DNA of 64,000 bases from an uncultured euryarchaeote (lineage in GTDB: Archaea; Thermoplasmatota; Poseidoniia; Poseidoniales; Poseidoniaceae), in assembly GCA_937899865.1 (NCBI GenBank), contig CALBRH010000060.1, positions 18,933-82,932 of the forward strand. Direction: 5' to 3'. Below the pieces are notes generated by a model. The model saw only the letters and a list, made by a program, of their open reading frames with translations, had not been told where the DNA came from and did not search any database. Of the stretch, positions 20,084 through 25,639 are shown piece after piece (position 1 is the stretch's first letter; every line of letters begins with the position of its first letter). The translations under genes were made by a program, and so were the position numbers.

Positions 20084-23000
20084 ATGTTCATGCGGGGGGT
20101 TGTTTTGTGTATTTTGATGGCGCTTGCACCTTTTGCTAGTGCTATTTCCTTGCCGCCAGAAGTCATTGAAGAGATTGATGATGGGAAATGGTCCGAGGTT
20201 GTGATTATATCGCATTCTGAAGCATGGGATTTAGCAATGTGGAATGATGTCAAAAATGCTGGAGGCCACCCTATTAGAACGCTCAATAGCCATGAGTTGT
20301 TAGTTTGGCAAAAATCTGATTTGAATCTTGACTCACTATTCTCTACAGTTCAATCCAAAGACGCTGAATGGAAGTCGGATGTTAAATTCAATCGTGGCGA
20401 TTATGAAGAAATCAAAATTTTATTCGAACCAAGATTGCCGGTTGAAGCATATTCTCAAATTCAAAATGATTTGAGTTTGGTTGGAATTAATGCCCCTGAA
20501 TTATCTTCATTGCCGTACTCTGTAATGCCGCACAAAATTATCGTAGACTTGTCTGATTCGATTCACTTTGATGCAATCAGTAAAATTCCTGGCATTTTGT
20601 GGATTGAGCCAGTCTTATCTGCTGAAGGACGTAATTTAGTCGCATCAGCATATCTTAGCGATGGTGATGTTACAACACAACCTCATTGGGATTTTGGATT
20701 GAATGGTGAAGGTGTGGTTTTGGGTATTGCTGATAGTGGGCTTGATGTTGATCACTCTTGTTTTAGGAATGGGAGTGATTCAATCGGCGAGTTTGGTAGC
20801 ACTCATAGGAAGGTTTTGATTAGTAACATAAGTCTTGATGACGGGGATAACCCTGGAGAAACTGACTATCGTCACGGAACTCATGTTGCCGGTTCGCTTG
20901 TCTGCCATGATGTTTACAATTTCCTAAATGATGAAGAGCCGATAAATGGAACCACTATGTCATATGGTGCGCAATTGGTTTTCCAAGACATTGTTTCAAA
21001 TGAAGGTTGGATTCCACCAGAAAATATTACTGAATTATTATTGGAAAATACGCTATCGGGAGGGGTTATTCACTCAAACTCATGGGGCGATGATACCACT
21101 GCTTACACCGATAGAACCGCTGATTTTGACTTGTGGGCAATTGAAGTTCCTTGGTCTCTAGCCTTTATTGCCCCTGGTAATACTGGTGGACAATTATTAG
21201 AGCCATCAAATGGGCGCAATGTCGTTGCAATTGGCGCTTCAACAAAGTCTGCAACGCCTGAGATGTGGCAATCGTCATCAGTTGGCCCAACTGAACTTGG
21301 AACGTTTGGTATTTTTGCGGTAGCGCCTGGGGTTTCAATTAATTCGGCTAAAGCTGATGGTTTTGATGATTCTATGAATAATGCACTAAGGTCTTCCAGC
21401 GGCACCAGTATGGCCACTCCTATTGCTGCTTCATTCAGTGGGATTGTACAACAAATGGTCGAGCAAGGTTGGATTTTAAGTTCTAACGAAGAGACTACAG
21501 AACACAATCTATCAGATATCAAACCTTCTTGGTCTTCTTTGCCAAATGAAACGATAAGTCTAGGAGAGGGATTTACTCCTTCAGGGCTTTTACTAAAATC
21601 ACTACTTGTTTTAGCAACTCAAGATATTGTTGAAAACGAGCAGTATTTCTTGAGAAATAATGACTCTGGTTGGGGAGTGTTAGACCTATCTAAATTGATT
21701 GATTTTGAAGACTTAGAAGCGTCTCTTGGGGAAGAAAATCTTACCCCAACCACAAACATTTGGATTCATGACAGTTACCGAAACTCGTTCGATGTAACAG
21801 AATGGTTAATGCAGCGATTTAATTCCAGTAATACATCAAATATTGAAGATAGTGTTTGGAATGGTGTTGGTGCTGAAGGACCATTTTTACAGTCTGGAGA
21901 AAGTTGGACAAAACGCCTAGTGCCAAATCAAAATGAAGACTTGGAAATCGTAATGTCTTTTCCAGCCAAACCAGAACCGTTTATTGTCGATGATCTAAGA
22001 CTAGTTGTAACATTATCTAATGGATATATTGCAACTGGACAGGTTTACGATCCTGATGGATACTCATCGCTATTTAGCAATGAAAGTTTCAACGTTACTC
22101 AAATTCAGAAATCCAACGAAACAAGTGTTGCTGTGAAAATCTCAATGCTTGATTTAACAGATGTTGAATGGATTGATATTGAAATTCAAGCCAACTATAT
22201 TTCTCCTGGAAATAGCCCGGGGGGTGTTGGTGTAGATGGTGACCGTACGGGATTTGCATTGGCTGCAAAGGGTGTAATTAGAGATTCCATTAATTGGGAG
22301 GATTCGGATGGAGATGGGTTGCCAAATGCTGTTGATTTGTGTCCAAATCAAAATCCACAATCATATGATTCAAACATGGATGGTTGCCCAGATGATAGTG
22401 ATGATGATGGTGTTATCGATCAATATGACTTATGTCCAAGCATCAATGCTCAGGGGTTTGATAATGATTTGAACGGTTGTATAGATGATTCGGATAATGA
22501 TGGAGTTGGGGATGATATAGATGTGTGTGTAACAGAAATTATCGACATAAATTATCCTGTTGACCTTCAAGGATGTCGGCCGGTAGATTCGCCTATAATG
22601 ATTGCAGAAACGGAAATTATTGGTTTGGAAAATAGTATCTGGGCTTCCACTTTAGAAGTTCGTTGGGAGATTAATGATGCAGATTTCGACCCCTATCTTA
22701 CCGGTTCAAGAATAATGATTAATCAAAGTGATAATAATTCATTCTTCCCTATTGTAACATGTACAGCTGAAGATATCGAAATAATCGATAATACTCATAT
22801 TTGTATTTGGAATGCAGTAGAAGATTTGCCAATATTTGATGTTACAGGCTATGGAATGCATGTACAATTTTTTGCTCAAAGCCTAAACGCTTCACCAGAG
22901 AGTAATAATGAAATTATTTATCTTGATTCGGAATTATATTTCTCTTCAAATCGTGGAATAAATATGGAAATTATTCAAGATAAGGATAGCCATGGTTCTG

Positions 23001-23158
23001 CGAGTGTAATTCGTTCAATTGGCTGGGGAATAATTACTATTTTTTCTATCGCACTTATTTGTCGGAAATTATGGTCTGTAATTCAAGAAGATGGGGGAGA
23101 AATTAAAAATAAACGATTTTTTACTGCGAACCCTTTTGTTGATGTTGAAAACGAATGA
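20084..23158 (+). CDS. Secreted S8 subtilisin-like serine peptidase with thrombospondin type-3 repeats and C-terminal TM
   Basis: Catalytic triad GIADSGLD, HGTHVAG, GTSMATP; DSDGDGLPNAVDLCP-type repeats; start moved to ATG 20084 (signal peptide) because the ORF-track start overlaps rplX. Confidence 0.92.
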   Translation: MFMRGVVLCILMALAPFASAISLPPEVIEEIDDGKWSEVVIISHSEAWDLAMWNDVKNAGGHPIRTLNSHELLVWQKSDLNLDSLFSTVQSKDAEWKSDVKFNRGDYEEIKILFEPRLPVEAYSQIQNDLSLVGINAPELSSLPYSVMPHKIIVDLSDSIHFDAISKIPGILWIEPVLSAEGRNLVASAYLSDGDVTTQPHWDFGLNGEGVVLGIADSGLDVDHSCFRNGSDSIGEFGSTHRKVLISNISLDDGDNPGETDYRHGTHVAGSLVCHDVYNFLNDEEPINGTTMSYGAQLVFQDIVSNEGWIPPENITELLLENTLSGGVIHSNSWGDDTTAYTDRTADFDLWAIEVPWSLAFIAPGNTGGQLLEPSNGRNVVAIGASTKSATPEMWQSSSVGPTELGTFGIFAVAPGVSINSAKADGFDDSMNNALRSSSGTSMATPIAASFSGIVQQMVEQGWILSSNEETTEHNLSDIKPSWSSLPNETISLGEGFTPSGLLLKSLLVLATQDIVENEQYFLRNNDSGWGVLDLSKLIDFEDLEASLGEENLTPTTNIWIHDSYRNSFDVTEWLMQRFNSSNTSNIEDSVWNGVGAEGPFLQSGESWTKRLVPNQNEDLEIVMSFPAKPEPFIVDDLRLVVTLSNGYIATGQVYDPDGYSSLFSNESFNVTQIQKSNETSVAVKISMLDLTDVEWIDIEIQANYISPGNSPGGVGVDGDRTGFALAAKGVIRDSINWEDSDGDGLPNAVDLCPNQNPQSYDSNMDGCPDDSDDDGVIDQYDLCPSINAQGFDNDLNGCIDDSDNDGVGDDIDVCVTEIIDINYPVDLQGCRPVDSPIMIAETEIIGLENSIWASTLEVRWEINDADFDPYLTGSRIMINQSDNNSFFPIVTCTAEDIEIIDNTHICIWNAVEDLPIFDVTGYGMHVQFFAQSLNASPESNNEIIYLDSELYFSSNRGINMEIIQDKDSHGSASVIRSIGWGIITIFSIALICRKLWSVIQEDGGEIKNKRFFTANPFVDVENE

Positions 23159-23270
23159 CTGAAGGCGTTTTTTGGCTAATTTAGCAGGTTTTTAGCCGAG
23201 TCATGACAAGGTGAACCTTGAAGTTCAATGTCGTTTTGGCTTAGATATCCCCAAGCGGATGGTGAATGAA

Positions 23271-24275
23271 ATGAGTGACCGCCTTTATGTTGGAATTGAC
23301 CTAGGAACATACCAATCTACTATCTCTTCAAGTGCTGGTGCAAGCCACACAATTGAGACTATTGTAGGTAGACCGAAAGACCCAGTAGCAAGAAACTTTC
23401 TTGGACGTGATGTGCTATTTGGCAATGATGCTTTGAAAAATAAATTAGCATGTAATTTATATCGCCCAATGGCTGCTGGAGTTGCTCAAGATGATGAAGC
23501 AAATCTAGCTGCTGCTAAGGCTTTTGTTTCACATCTTCTCGAAACTGTTGACCCTGAAGAATTTGACGAAGTGTTTGGTGTGATTTGTTCCCCAAGTCAC
23601 GTTTCATTTACTGACAAGTCCAATCTCGTTGCTACCTTGAGAGGTCAAGTTAATGCAATTATGGTCGTTACAGAACCTTTTGCAACCGCTTATGGAATTG
23701 AAGAAATCGCTGGGTCAATTGTTGTTGATATCGGCGCAGGTACAACTGATATCGCCCGTATTCACGGAACTTTCCCGTCTGATGAAGATCAAGTCACCAT
23801 TCAAGAAGCAGGTGATTGGTTGGACTTGGCATTGATGGAATTAGTCCAGAAGAAGTATACCGGTGCTCAAGTTACCAAAGATATGGTTCGCCGATGGAAA
23901 GAAGCTTCCTCATATGTTGGTAAAGATGTCAAAGAAGTAATGGTTGAGTTATCTGTTGAAGGTAAAAAGCAAGTTGTTGATATCGGCGATCTAATCGTTG
24001 AGGCTTGTGAATCAATTGTACCTCTTGTTGCAGCTGCTATCAAAAAGATCGTTGCAACTGCTGACCCTGAATATCAACCAGTACTTAGAAACAACATCAT
24101 CCTATCTGGTGGCGGCTCATTGATTGATGGTATTGCAGCAAGAATGGCCGAAGAAATCTCAGATATTGGTGATGTCAATGTATGGTGTGTTGAAGATGCA
24201 ATAAACAGTGTAGCAAATGGTGCACTAAAACTTGCTAGTGAAATGCCAGACGACATGTACACTGCAATTAACTAA
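23271..24275 (+). CDS. Actin-family ATPase, MamK-like
   Basis: Phosphate-1 VGIDLGT, VTEPFA, phosphate-2 VDIGAGTTD, adenosine ILSGGGS; MamK-like segments GRPKD, HGTFPSDEDQVTIQEAG, DPEYQPVLRNNI; SD GGTGA before ATG 23271. Confidence 0.88.
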   Translation: MSDRLYVGIDLGTYQSTISSSAGASHTIETIVGRPKDPVARNFLGRDVLFGNDALKNKLACNLYRPMAAGVAQDDEANLAAAKAFVSHLLETVDPEEFDEVFGVICSPSHVSFTDKSNLVATLRGQVNAIMVVTEPFATAYGIEEIAGSIVVDIGAGTTDIARIHGTFPSDEDQVTIQEAGDWLDLALMELVQKKYTGAQVTKDMVRRWKEASSYVGKDVKEVMVELSVEGKKQVVDIGDLIVEACESIVPLVAAAIKKIVATADPEYQPVLRNNIILSGGGSLIDGIAARMAEEISDIGDVNVWCVEDAINSVANGALKLASEMPDDMYTAIN

Positions 24276-24322: not shown

Positions 24323-24373
24323 CCTAATATTATTGGGAAAGTTCAAGAGTGGTTGATTACCGATAGGCGTCGT

Positions 24374-25639
24374 ATGACAGTCGGCTCCTCGTCGCCCAGC
24401 GGAATAAAACGTGTTGGTGACACCTCTTCTGAAGAACGAGCAGCATTGGAAGGAATGCTACAAGGATACCCTGTTGAACAACTTGTTGAAGAGGTATTGA
24501 TCGCTTGGGATGAGTTGGCAAAAAGAAATGATGAAATGGTATCTGTTAAGCAACGATTGCGAGTTTTGGAACTTGACCTTGCTGAAAGAGAAGACATGGT
24601 AGCGCCTGAAATCGCTCGAATGAATGATTTAGAGGCGGAATTAGAAGAACGTCGTAGCCAAATGGCCCATCTTGAAAGATTGTTATCAGATGCTAGACAA
24701 GATTTAGCCGCACAACAAGCCTCACTATCCAGTGAAGAAAAAACTCGGTTAGAAGATGAAGTTGAAGCGTTGAAGGGACTTACCTCTGAACAAGATGAGA
24801 TAATAGGTGAAATGGAAGGTCGCGTTTCTCAAATGGTTGAAGCATTAGAAAGAGCTGCTGATGCTGGATTAACATCAGTAACTGCTGATGAAGTTAGAAG
24901 TCTTAAATCTCAAGTTGACAATATGACAAAGCAGTATGAAGTGGAAGCTTCTGCTAACAAAGCATTAGAAGAAGAACGTCAAAGACTACGTGATATTGCT
25001 GATAGATTGCGTGGATTATTGGATGCTAGAGATAATCGTCTAACAGAACTTGAAGAACAATTAGAGCGGGTAATGCAAGGACCTCGTTCTGTTTCTGCTG
25101 AACATGACTACCTTGTTGAGCAAATTGAAGAATTAAAGCGTCGATTGTTAGAGAGAAATAGAGAATATGAATCTCTAAGAAGGAGAGAAAGGCGTCTTCA
25201 TAGTGATGTCTTTGAAAGAGATGAAAGAGTTCAACAAATGTCACTAACAATGAGTGATTTAGAGTCGGCTTTACAAGATAGAACTGCTGAATTGAGGGAG
25301 TTAGAAAGTATTAGAGAAACCATGTCTAATGAATTAGATTCAGTTAGAAGAGGAGAGCGTACAAGAGAAGTTGTCGGACGTGTCTTTGCTGATTCACTCT
25401 CTTTGGTGAGGGGGCATGATGAGCGAGAAATAAAGCGAGAAGCTTATGCTAACTCGCCAGATGTTGAAAGAAAGTTGTCCACGCCAGATTTGGAAGATAT
25501 GGCAAACCTTGCAGAAGGTGGACGAGTAGACCTTGATGTTGAAGAAACTGTAATTGAGCCTGGTATGGATGTAGACACTAATCGTCCTGCAGCCCCTGGA
25601 GGAAGTGGCGACCCCGTTATCTTCGAAGATGAAGATTAA
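24374..25639 (+). CDS. Long segmented coiled-coil protein (no ATPase motifs)
   Basis: Over 300 aa of E/R/L-rich heptads broken by short Gly/Pro linkers; unstructured head and acidic tail; ATG 24374 preferred. Confidence 0.85.
   Translation: MTVGSSSPSGIKRVGDTSSEERAALEGMLQGYPVEQLVEEVLIAWDELAKRNDEMVSVKQRLRVLELDLAEREDMVAPEIARMNDLEAELEERRSQMAHLERLLSDARQDLAAQQASLSSEEKTRLEDEVEALKGLTSEQDEIIGEMEGRVSQMVEALERAADAGLTSVTADEVRSLKSQVDNMTKQYEVEASANKALEEERQRLRDIADRLRGLLDARDNRLTELEEQLERVMQGPRSVSAEHDYLVEQIEELKRRLLERNREYESLRRRERRLHSDVFERDERVQQMSLTMSDLESALQDRTAELRELESIRETMSNELDSVRRGERTREVVGRVFADSLSLVRGHDEREIKREAYANSPDVERKLSTPDLEDMANLAEGGRVDLDVEETVIEPGMDVDTNRPAAPGGSGDPVIFEDED

What the first reader, a model, noticed from the sequence alone, without database searches (positions are those of the whole stretch)
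23271..24275. MamK-like actin in a planktonic, non-magnetotactic archaeon
Seen: all actin ATPase motifs plus segments that, from recall, track magnetosome MamK closely (VDIGAGTTDI..HGTFPSDEDQVT vs MamK VDIGAGTTDI..KGTVPGPEDQVT; DPEYQPVLRNNIILSGGGS vs QPEYQATVLQNIVFAGGGS) and more so than MreB. No mam, mreC or mreD genes are present. Established: haloarchaeal MamK-related actins (Salactin, Volactin) form dynamic filaments linked to DNA partitioning or cell shape. Inference: an uncharacterised filament system in an uncultured lineage.
Basis: partly seen in the sequence, partly recalled or inferred. Interest (0 to 1): 0.75.

Follow-up and report, generated by a model that had tools for sequence, protein, structure and literature searches.

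The report
MamK-type actin gene in ocean archaea
Marine Group II archaea (Poseidoniales), among the commonest archaea in surface seawater, carry a well-conserved but unstudied actin-like filament gene of the bacterial magnetosome (MamK) type with a dedicated coiled-coil partner gene, and no magnetosome genes were found, so it probably builds an undescribed internal filament system.

Summary
Window 23271-24275 (+) encodes a 334-aa actin-fold ATPase. Its best solved relative over its full length is MamK (E 4e-63), ahead of BeeR (1e-40), MreB (1e-13) and actin (1e-7). Its AlphaFold model superposes on the MamK filament protomer (TM 0.91/0.94). It scores 338 bits on NCBIfam's MamK model, the top hit but under the 400-bit cut-off.

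In a careful tree it forms a strongly supported clade with a second, unlinked paralog of the same genome (48% identity). That clade lies inside the MamK-family radiation, apart from MreB and from the MamK clades of magnetotactic bacteria. MamI, MamP, MreC and a true MreB were not found in the genome.

Both paralogs were found in 41/41 Poseidoniaceae searched. In Thalassarchaeaceae, both are found or neither is. Each paralog has its own partner gene: a 421-aa coiled-coil protein here, and a double zinc-ribbon protein at the other locus. Genomes lacking the actin also lack the partners, except for a 150-180-aa stub of the coiled-coil gene at the same position.

Public records call it "MreB" or hypothetical, and I found no paper describing it. 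Polymerisation, partner binding and cellular role are inferred, not shown. Follow-up agents of this scan reached the same conclusion on other Poseidoniales genomes.

The parts
23271..24275 (+). MamK-family actin-like ATPase, paralog 1 (334 aa)
   Evidence: PDB MamK E 4.4e-63 over the full length. NCBIfam MamK 337.7 bits, the top hit but under the 400-bit cut-off. AF2 model pLDDT 78.7, and Foldseek's best match is the 5ljv MamK filament at TM 0.91/0.94. E135 and D153 align with MamK E143 and D161.
24374..25639 (+). Coiled-coil partner gene (421 aa from ATG 24374; a TTG at 24353 is also possible). It has a conserved N-terminal module, a rod, a near-invariant block around residues 236-285 and a variable acidic tail.
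   Evidence: No Pfam family; only weak SMC-coil matches. It lies co-directionally just downstream of the actin gene in all three families of the order. Conservation is mapped. The full-length form is found only beside the actin, and actin-less genomes keep only an N-terminal stub. Protein-language features resemble crescentin rod clusters, which is a lead only.
20084..23158 (+). Upstream surface-anchored S8 subtilase: signal peptide, Asp/His/Ser motifs present, thrombospondin-type-3-like acidic repeats and a C-terminal transmembrane anchor. Its membership of the module is uncertain.
   Evidence: Pfam Peptidase_S8 7.8e-24. Signal peptide and C-terminal TM segment are shown. It lies directly upstream in all three families. 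Its post-protease region, as a neighbour of the actin gene, was found only in actin-bearing genera. The cytoplasmic tail is conserved only within Poseidoniaceae.

Best explanation
The gene encodes a catalytically intact, filament-forming actin-like ATPase of the MamK family in the broad sense. It belongs to a Poseidoniales-specific subfamily that duplicated early in the order into two unlinked paralogs.

Proposed mechanism. ATP-bound monomers assemble into MamK-like filaments, and hydrolysis through the conserved Glu135/Asp153 site turns them over. The adjacent coiled-coil protein binds the filament through its C-terminal half and bundles, anchors or regulates it. This would parallel MamJ, McaA/B or the Mad coiled-coil proteins acting on MamK in magnetotactic bacteria. 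The second paralog would work the same way with its own double zinc-ribbon partner.

The cargo is not a magnetosome. The most likely role is general cell organisation (shape, size, or positioning of an envelope or cytoplasmic structure) in the larger-genome Poseidoniales. The system is dispensable and missing in the streamlined genera.

Shown here: family placement, fold, catalytic residues, conservation, paralogy, synteny and phyletic co-occurrence. Inferred: polymerisation, physical binding of the partners, and the cellular role.
For: Family and fold.

Catalytic motifs: E135, P136, F137, D153, G155, G157 and D160 are invariant in 19 orthologues. D153 and G155 are invariant across 36 diverse family members.

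Tree: paralog 1 plus paralog 2 form one clade (100/98), and the MamK family is split from MreB at 100/100. FastTree and the quick IQ-TREE run agree.

Vertical conservation: 24/24 genomes of the genus carry it and 41/41 Poseidoniaceae. The synteny FtsY-prefoldin | S8 - actin - coiled-coil | GGGPS holds across three families.

Coupling to partners, in 81 Thalassarchaeaceae genomes:
- The actin was found in 29 genomes, and at genus level both unlinked paralogs are found or neither is.
- The full-length coiled-coil gene was found in 27 genomes. 26 of them have the actin, and wherever both genes lie on one contig they are adjacent.
- 24 of the 52 actin-less genomes keep only a 141-189-aa homologue of the coiled-coil N-terminus. 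In the one locus I examined (G039) it sits at the same position beside GGGPS.
- The zinc-ribbon partner of paralog 2 shows the same genus pattern and adjacency.

Precedent: coiled-coil proteins acting with MamK/Mad28 (PMC12748827) and ATP-dependent polymerisation of the MamK relative BeeR (PMC11929497).
Against: No experiment or expression data exist for this protein.

It scores below NCBIfam's MamK cut-off.

Gene order is conserved across the whole region in this order, so adjacency alone is weak evidence of a functional link. Adjacent genes can also be lost in a single deletion, and the actin-less genera may descend from only one or a few loss events, so the co-occurrence counts are not independent.

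The coiled-coil protein has no recognisable actin-binding motif, and its tail varies between families.

No cargo or anchor has been identified.
Confidence: 0.6

Rival explanations
1. It is a DNA-segregation motor, working like ParM/AlfA or the archaeal relative Salactin. The filaments would push or pull chromosome copies, with the partner proteins acting as adaptors to DNA.
For: Salactin, whose nearest subfamily is MamK, affects chromosome partitioning (PMC10746226). The partner of paralog 2 carries zinc ribbons at both ends and so could bind nucleic acid. First-stage notes place a candidate replication origin about 20 kb downstream in this window; I did not check this.
Against: No ParR-like ribbon-helix-helix or HTH adaptor and no centromere-like repeat array lies next to the gene. 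The coiled-coil partner has no DNA-binding domain in Pfam or NCBIfam. The gene is chromosomal and core rather than on a plasmid. A whole block of genera does without it, which is odd for a chromosome-segregation machine.
Confidence: 0.15
2. It guides cell-envelope remodelling. The filament would position the upstream membrane-anchored extracellular S8 protease, in the way that some bacterial MamK-like genes are paired with a membrane-anchored peptidoglycan amidase.
For: The S8 gene lies directly upstream in all three families, and its specific region, as a neighbour of the actin gene, was found only in actin-bearing genera. In one well-supported bacterial clade, 16 loci have an Amidase_3 gene immediately upstream and co-directional with the MamK-like gene. 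One database protein fuses Amidase_3 to the actin domain (P0308). The KSB1 long form is flanked by a faint Peptidase_M23 match.
Against: The cytoplasmic tail of the S8 protein is conserved (a PF motif plus an acidic end) only in Poseidoniaceae. In the other families it is a few basic residues, so there is no universal docking site. Loss of adjacent genes together can be a single deletion. The analogy between amidase and S8 protease is functional only, not homology.
Confidence: 0.15
3. It is an MreB orthologue, as public annotation says, determining rod shape through wall-synthesis complexes.
For: The Pfam MreB_Mbl family is matched at 81.7 bits. JGI and NCBI name the homologues 'rod shape-determining protein MreB'.
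Against: It scores only 72-80 bits on MreB models whose cut-offs are 293-366 bits. MreB is split from this family at 100/100 in the tree. MreC was not found.
Confidence: 0.03
4. It is a mis-binned bacterial contig or a recent, functionless transfer.
For: Two public contigs carrying the same locus are labelled Verrucomicrobiales and Deltaproteobacteria (L023, L030). Bacterial KSB1 proteins are the nearest outgroup in two of the three trees.
Against: The gene is flanked by archaeal genes (GGGP synthase, prefoldin, FtsY) on a contig that extends beyond the 64-kb window. It is present in 41/41 Poseidoniaceae with conserved synteny. Orthologues are 62-97% identical with intact motifs. The genome behind the 'Verrucomicrobiales' label has 1.8 Mb, no true MreB and the same paralog pair.
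Confidence: 0.02

Closest known systems
MamK, the magnetosome actin of magnetotactic bacteria (PDB 5jyg, 5ljv, 5ljw; NCBIfam NF040964), with its adaptors MamJ, McaA/B and the Mad coiled-coil proteins
   Same: It is the best sequence, profile and fold match. It has the same length and domain layout with no extensions. The phosphate-2 (DIGAGTTD) and connect-1 (EPF) motifs are the same, and the residues aligning with MamK E143 and D161 are conserved. It is paired with a coiled-coil or acidic partner gene, as MamK is functionally (PMC12748827).
   Different: Identity to MamK is about 33% in Foldseek's structural alignment. It scores under the family cut-off (338 vs 400 bits). It forms its own clade, separate from the clades that hold magnetotactic MamK. 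The host is an archaeon. MamI and MamP were not found and there is no magnetosome gene cluster. The partner genes have no detectable similarity to known MamK partners.
BeeR, the three-stranded tubular actin of Verrucomicrobiota (PDB 8r2n; NF053558)
   Same: It is a MamK relative in a non-magnetotactic organism. It is the second-best solved match (E 1.3e-40, TM 0.85).
   Different: It scores 212 bits against a 530-bit cut-off. It lacks the 30-50-residue disordered N-terminal extension that defines BeeR (PMC11929497). It is much closer to MamK than BeeR itself is (25-30% identity by that paper).
Salactin and Volactin, the haloarchaeal actins
   Same: They are archaeal actin-fold proteins. The Salactin authors name MamK as its nearest subfamily.
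   Different: The match is very distant. It scores 30 bits on the salactin model (cut-off 400) and 24 bits on Pfam Salactin (cut-off 27.1). Pfam Volactin was not among the matches for this paralog at E up to 0.1. Salactin sits on a very long, unstable branch in the trees.
Crescentin/FilP-type coiled-coil cytoskeletal proteins (relevant to the partner gene only)
   Same: The partner has a head-rod-tail layout with no enzymatic domain. Protein-language features are nearest to crescentin rod clusters outside its own family (score 0.92, only 144 shared features).
   Different: There is no Pfam Rod_CreS match. The resemblance may reflect coiled-coil composition only. This is a lead, not homology.

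Membership tests
MamK family (NCBIfam NF040964) | Score at or above the curated cut-off of the family model (400 bits) | tested here: not met
   It scores 337.7 bits and paralog 2 scores 367.9 bits. It is still by far the best-scoring family. The MamK-like protein of P. magneticum scores 472 bits on the same model.
MamK family (NCBIfam NF040964) | Actin fold most similar to the MamK protomer, with intact nucleotide-binding and hydrolysis motifs | tested here: met
   Foldseek's best match is the 5ljv MamK filament at TM 0.91/0.94 and rmsd 1.9 A. E135 aligns with MamK E143 and D153 with D161. The motifs are invariant in orthologues.
MamK family (NCBIfam NF040964) | Branches within the MamK radiation rather than with MreB, Salactin or other actin families | tested here: met
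   The split from MreB is 100/100. The Poseidoniales clade (100/98) is one of many lineages in an unresolved MamK-family backbone.
MamK in the strict sense (magnetosome cytoskeleton) | Encoded in or with a magnetosome gene cluster | tested here: not met
   The neighbours are S8 protease, coiled-coil, peroxiredoxin and GGGPS genes. MamI and MamP were not found in the 91%-complete genome. MamI was found in three magnetotactic control genomes.
MamK in the strict sense (magnetosome cytoskeleton) | Orthology with MamK of magnetotactic bacteria (nested in their clades) | tested here: not met
   The magnetotactic sequences (Desulfamplus, Nitrospirota, Omnitrophota, AMB-1 MamK-like, CAX83788) fall in other clades.
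MamK family (NCBIfam NF040964) | ATP-dependent assembly into a two-stranded, non-staggered filament | not testable with these tools
   This needs purified protein and electron microscopy.
MreB (TIGR00904, PRK13927) | Score over the family cut-off, with mreC/mreD partners | tested here: not met
   It scores 72.1 and 80.3 bits against cut-offs of 365.75 and 293 bits. No ORF of the genome passes the cut-off. MreC was not found.
Salactin (NF053533, PF25229) and Volactin (PF25216) | Score over the family cut-off | tested here: not met
   Salactin: 30.2 bits (cut-off 400) and 24 bits (cut-off 27.1). Volactin was not among the Pfam matches for this paralog at E up to 0.1.
BeeR (NF053558) | Score over the cut-off, and a disordered N-terminal extension of 30-50 residues | tested here: not met
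   It scores 212.2 bits against a 530-bit cut-off. The actin fold starts at residue 4.

The most novel reading that the evidence does not exclude
Poseidoniales ancestrally carry a cytoskeleton of two MamK-family filaments, each with its own lineage-specific adaptor: a crescentin-like coiled-coil protein for one and a double zinc-ribbon protein for the other. The system organises the envelope or cell interior of these wall-less planktonic archaea and was discarded wholesale during genome streamlining. More broadly, MamK-family filaments would be general-purpose positioning scaffolds whose adaptors are swapped between lineages: a peptidoglycan amidase in several bacterial phyla, a fused coiled-coil head in KSB1, and a FlaD/E-domain protein in Methanoperedens. 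Magnetosome alignment would then be only one derived use.
Probability: 0.35. Interest if true: 0.75.

Novelty: new variant of a known kind. Interest (0 to 1): 0.58.

Why it matters
Marine Group II archaea are among the most abundant archaea in the surface ocean, yet they are uncultured and their cell biology is essentially unknown. A conserved pair of MamK-type actins with dedicated partner genes gives a concrete handle that can be expressed in other hosts, to study how these cells are organised.

It also widens the picture of the MamK family, from a magnetosome specialist to a widespread scaffold with interchangeable adaptors.

There are two practical consequences. Public annotation as 'MreB, rod shape-determining' is misleading for these archaea. 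And mamK has been described as a marker gene specific to magnetotactic bacteria (abstract of bioRxiv 10.1101/682252, seen), although close relatives occur in abundant non-magnetotactic plankton.

Tried and rejected
- **Complex prediction.** I ran the actin (19-row alignment) with residues 196-421 of the coiled-coil protein (17-row alignment). The verdict was 'no answer' (score 0.00). This counts neither for nor against binding.
- **Link to the archaellum: rejected.** In 81 Thalassarchaeaceae genomes, archaellin (PF01917) and the actin do not track each other. Genera g3, g4 and g17 have the actin without archaellin, and g10 and g140 have the reverse.
- **Rosetta-stone idea.** I asked whether the N-terminal coiled-coil head fused to the actin domain in KSB1 bacteria is homologous to the Poseidoniales partners. 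phmmer found nothing at E up to 10.
- **First related-loci scan.** A 10-row alignment worked.
- **97-row careful tree.** It did not finish in 1217 s on one CPU. I used its quick tree and a finished 54-row careful tree.
- **Outgroups.** Volactin was left out of the IQ-TREE trees and Salactin out of the careful one because of very long branches. Salactin's branch length was 7.2, where it was drawn into the bacterial clade, and its placement is not trustworthy.
- **Sister group.** KSB1 as sister is supported by FastTree (95) and the quick tree (82) but collapses in the careful tree. An AU test did not reject a single clade of all known archaeal sequences (p 0.27). The origin, vertical or by transfer, therefore stays open.
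- **MamK A278 position.** The A278D mutant does not polymerise. This position is Pro here, Glu in paralog 2, and D/E/Q/A in other natural members, so it says nothing about polymerisation.
- **S8 cytoplasmic tail as a docking site.** It is conserved only within Poseidoniaceae.
- **Composition scan for coiled-coil neighbours** of MamK-like genes in other phyla. It was uninformative in high-GC genomes.
- **Promoter and terminator scans** were at shuffle level.

Full report
**The gene.** Window 23271-24275 (+) is an open frame of 334 codons that starts at an ATG. A longer GTG start at 23211 is possible, but most close homologues in public data are exactly 334 aa.

**Family assignment by sequence.** Against all solved structures, the best matches are the three MamK entries 5jyg, 5ljv and 5ljw (E 4e-63 to 6e-63, about 216 bits), aligned end to end (query 3-330, MamK 10-338). 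Next come BeeR 8r2n (1.3e-40), MreB (1e-13 and weaker), eukaryotic actins (from 1.3e-7) and DnaK.
- NCBIfam ranks MamK first (337.7 bits, under the curated 400-bit cut-off). BeeR follows at 212 bits, MreB models at 72-80, salactin at 30 and crenactin and ParM below 20.
- Pfam, which lists no MamK-named family among the matches, reports MreB_Mbl at 81.7 bits. This may be why the public records I saw call the protein 'rod shape-determining protein MreB' or hypothetical.

**Fold and catalytic residues.** An AlphaFold2 model built on 19 orthologues (mean pLDDT 78.7) superposes best on the MamK filament protomer 5ljv (TM 0.91/0.94, rmsd 1.9 A, 33% identity), then on BeeR, then on MreB and actin. 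In the HMMER alignment, Glu135 and Asp153 align with MamK Glu143 and Asp161. From my own knowledge, mutating these two MamK residues abolishes ATPase activity and filament turnover. Both residues, and the surrounding EPF and DIGAGTTD motifs, are invariant in the orthologues. D153 and G155 are invariant in 36 diverse family members.

**Organism and context.** Near-identical proteins and contigs are named Candidatus Poseidonia, Poseidoniaceae or Poseidoniales. The neighbours are:
- FtsY and prefoldin on the minus strand;
- a 1088-codon frame for an S8 subtilase with a signal peptide (from ATG 20084), intact Asp/His/Ser motifs, acidic thrombospondin-type repeats and a C-terminal membrane anchor;
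- the actin gene;
- 98 bases later, a 421-aa coiled-coil protein;
- then peroxiredoxin, GGGP synthase, an ABC transporter and a rhodopsin.

The order S8 - actin - coiled-coil | GGGPS is kept in representatives of all three families of the order. MamI and MamP were not found in the 91%-complete genome. MamI was found in three magnetotactic genomes used as controls and not in a Gemmataceae genome that has a MamK-like gene. MreC was not found, and no ORF reaches the MreB cut-off.

**A second paralog.** The same genome has a second copy on another contig (G000:C51:171674-172666; 48% identity; NCBIfam MamK 367.9 bits). It is always preceded, co-directionally, by a 338-aa protein with zinc ribbons at both ends.

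**Distribution.**
- Both paralogs occur in 24/24 genomes searched in the genus and 41/41 in the family.
- None was found in 8 genomes of a sister family in the class. Related proteins occur in 7 other Thermoplasmatota with large genomes, 4 of them above the MamK cut-off.
- In 81 Thalassarchaeaceae genomes, a MamK-family gene was found in 29. The split is sharp at genus level. All or most genomes of g3, g9, g4, g11, g17 and g141 have it. None of 7 each in g5, g6, g7, g8, g10 and g140 do. In g139 it is 1 of 8.
- The positive genera have genomes of about 1.6-2.2 Mb and the negative ones about 1.2-1.7 Mb.
- The two unlinked paralogs are found together or not at all, apart from fragmented assemblies.

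**Coupling to the partner genes.**
- A profile of the coiled-coil protein finds the full-length gene in 27 of the 81 genomes. 26 of these have the actin, and wherever both genes lie on one contig they are adjacent.
- 24 of the 52 actin-less genomes retain only an ORF of 141-189 aa that matches positions ~7-160 of the profile.
- In the closed-looking genome G039, this stub lies at the same position, directly beside GGGP synthase. The space between it and prefoldin is filled by APS-kinase, sulfotransferase and phosphatase-like genes instead of S8 and actin. So the C-terminal ~260 residues of the partner go with the actin. This part includes a near-invariant block around residues 236-285.
- The post-protease part of the S8 protein, as a neighbour of the actin gene, and the zinc-ribbon partner of paralog 2 show the same genus pattern.
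- Two caveats apply. These genera are related, so the number of independent losses may be small. And adjacent genes can vanish in a single deletion. The joint absence of two unlinked loci is the stronger signal.

**Phylogeny.** I assembled MamK-like domains from several sources:
- the 50%-identity representative library (126 clusters at E up to 1e-30);
- 80 loci of named species genomes;
- other Thermoplasmatota;
- outgroups: MreB, salactin and volactin.

Three trees were built: FastTree on 169 rows, IQ-TREE quick with a site-heterogeneous model on 97 rows, and a finished careful search on 54 rows. They agree on the following:
- The MamK family is cleanly split from MreB (100/100).
- Paralog 1 and paralog 2 are each monophyletic (100/100) and together form one clade (100/98), so the duplication is internal to, or just before, the order.
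- Sequences from magnetotactic bacteria lie in other clades. These are the Desulfamplus, Nitrospirota and Omnitrophota MAGs of PMC7602337, the MamK-like protein of P. magneticum, and CAX83788.

The deep backbone is unresolved in the careful tree. The nearest outgroup in the two faster trees is a set of 523-1232-aa proteins of candidate division KSB1 bacteria. These carry a conserved N-terminal coiled-coil head and a long disordered linker before the actin domain. That sister relation collapses in the careful tree. Other archaeal sequences (Methanoperedens, ANME-2, Methanolobus, other Thermoplasmatota) lie nearby. An AU test does not reject one clade of all known archaeal members (p 0.27). Whether Poseidoniales inherited the gene vertically or by transfer cannot be decided here.

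**What it most likely does.** The protein has everything expected of a polymerising actin-like ATPase, and its closest characterised relatives (MamK, BeeR) both polymerise with ATP (PMC11929497). MamK in bacteria works with acidic or coiled-coil adaptors (PMC12748827). I therefore propose a filament plus adaptor system in which the C-terminal half of the coiled-coil protein contacts the filament. No cargo is evident.
- A link to the archaellum is rejected by the phyletic pattern.
- A DNA-segregation role, as for Salactin, is possible but unsupported by any DNA-binding adaptor next to paralog 1.
- An envelope-remodelling role with the S8 protease is suggested by an analogy seen in passing. In one bacterial clade, 16 loci have a membrane-anchored Amidase_3 gene immediately upstream of the MamK-like gene. 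However, the S8 cytoplasmic tail is not conserved outside Poseidoniaceae.
- A complex prediction for actin plus partner gave no verdict.

**Novelty.** Full-text searches combined MamK, MreB or actin with Marine Group II or Poseidoniales, and found no paper describing these genes. MamK relatives in non-magnetotactic organisms are known in principle (BeeR). So this is a new variant of a known kind rather than a new kind: an archaeal subfamily with two paralogs and new partner proteins.

**Earlier work in this scan.** Follow-up agents have already reported the same actin and coiled-coil pair on other Poseidoniales genomes, and my results agree with theirs. As far as the excerpts I saw show, this report adds:
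- the co-loss pattern with the N-terminal stub;
- the zinc-ribbon partner of paralog 2;
- the negative archaellum test;
- the identification of the KSB1 long forms;
- the bacterial amidase pairing;
- the finished site-heterogeneous tree with its AU test.

Noticed in passing
G000:C51:171674-172666 (L003:9666-10691), with L003:8524-9540 upstream: A second MamK-family paralog (48% identity) is always preceded by a co-directional 338-aa protein with CxxC zinc ribbons at both ends. That protein has no Pfam family and occurs only in actin-bearing genera, adjacent to paralog 2.
   Followed up: partly
L120:9952-10446 (G039:C1, an actin-less Thalassarchaeaceae genome): A 164-aa ORF homologous to the N-terminal ~160 residues of the coiled-coil partner sits beside GGGP synthase. 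The S8 and actin genes are replaced there by APS-kinase, sulfotransferase and phosphatase-like genes. Similar stubs occur in 24 of 52 actin-less genomes.
   Followed up: yes
L047, L052, L055, L058, L061, L062, L071, L073, L076, L079, L085, L087, L089, L093, L094, L095: In one well-supported bacterial clade of MamK-like genes (Nitrospirota, Acidobacteriota, Gemmatimonadota, Schekmanbacteria, delta- and gammaproteobacterial MAGs), a membrane-anchored N-acetylmuramoyl-L-alanine amidase (Amidase_3) gene lies immediately upstream and co-directional. One database protein (P0308) fuses the two domains.
   Followed up: partly
P0125-P0139, L118:10001-12364: Candidate division KSB1 bacteria encode 523-1232-aa proteins with a conserved N-terminal coiled-coil head, a long low-complexity linker and a C-terminal MamK-like domain that is 43-45% identical to the window's protein.
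   Followed up: partly
P0175 (CAX83788, uncultured magnetotactic bacterium): A 768-aa protein with a complete FtsZ (Tubulin plus FtsZ_C) N-terminal half fused to a MamK domain. The source names it magnetosome protein MamK.
   Followed up: no
L049:7000-7611 (Candidatus Methanoperedens): The MamK-like gene of Methanoperedens is followed without a gap by a 203-aa protein carrying an archaeal flagella FlaD/E domain (PF04659, 3.5e-14).
   Followed up: no
L023 (NZEQ01000025, 'Verrucomicrobiales bacterium ARS100') and L030 (JAOMAZ010000009, 'Deltaproteobacteria bacterium AH-558-G13'): Public contigs labelled as bacteria carry the Poseidoniales actin and coiled-coil locus at 74-87% identity. The genome behind L023 has 1.8 Mb, no true MreB and both paralogs, so the labels look wrong.
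   Followed up: partly
G027 (L009 and L014): One bin holds two copies of the whole syntenic block (prefoldin, S8, actin, coiled-coil, GGGPS) at 63-74% identity to the window. It has 6% contamination, so it is probably two related genomes in one bin rather than a third paralog.
   Followed up: partly
G075:C1:1175447-1176441: In a single-contig genome of the same genus, one of the three MamK-family matches is split into two abutting pieces (profile positions 1-148 and 150-331). This suggests a frameshifted or interrupted copy.
   Followed up: no
P0312: An 810-aa MamK/MreB-like protein carries intein and homing-endonuclease domains (PF07591, PF14890).
   Followed up: no
window 20084-23158: In Poseidoniaceae, the S8 protease's short cytoplasmic tail after the membrane anchor keeps a 'PF' motif and an acidic C-terminus (ENE/EEE/EDE). 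In the other two families it is reduced to a few basic residues.
   Followed up: partly
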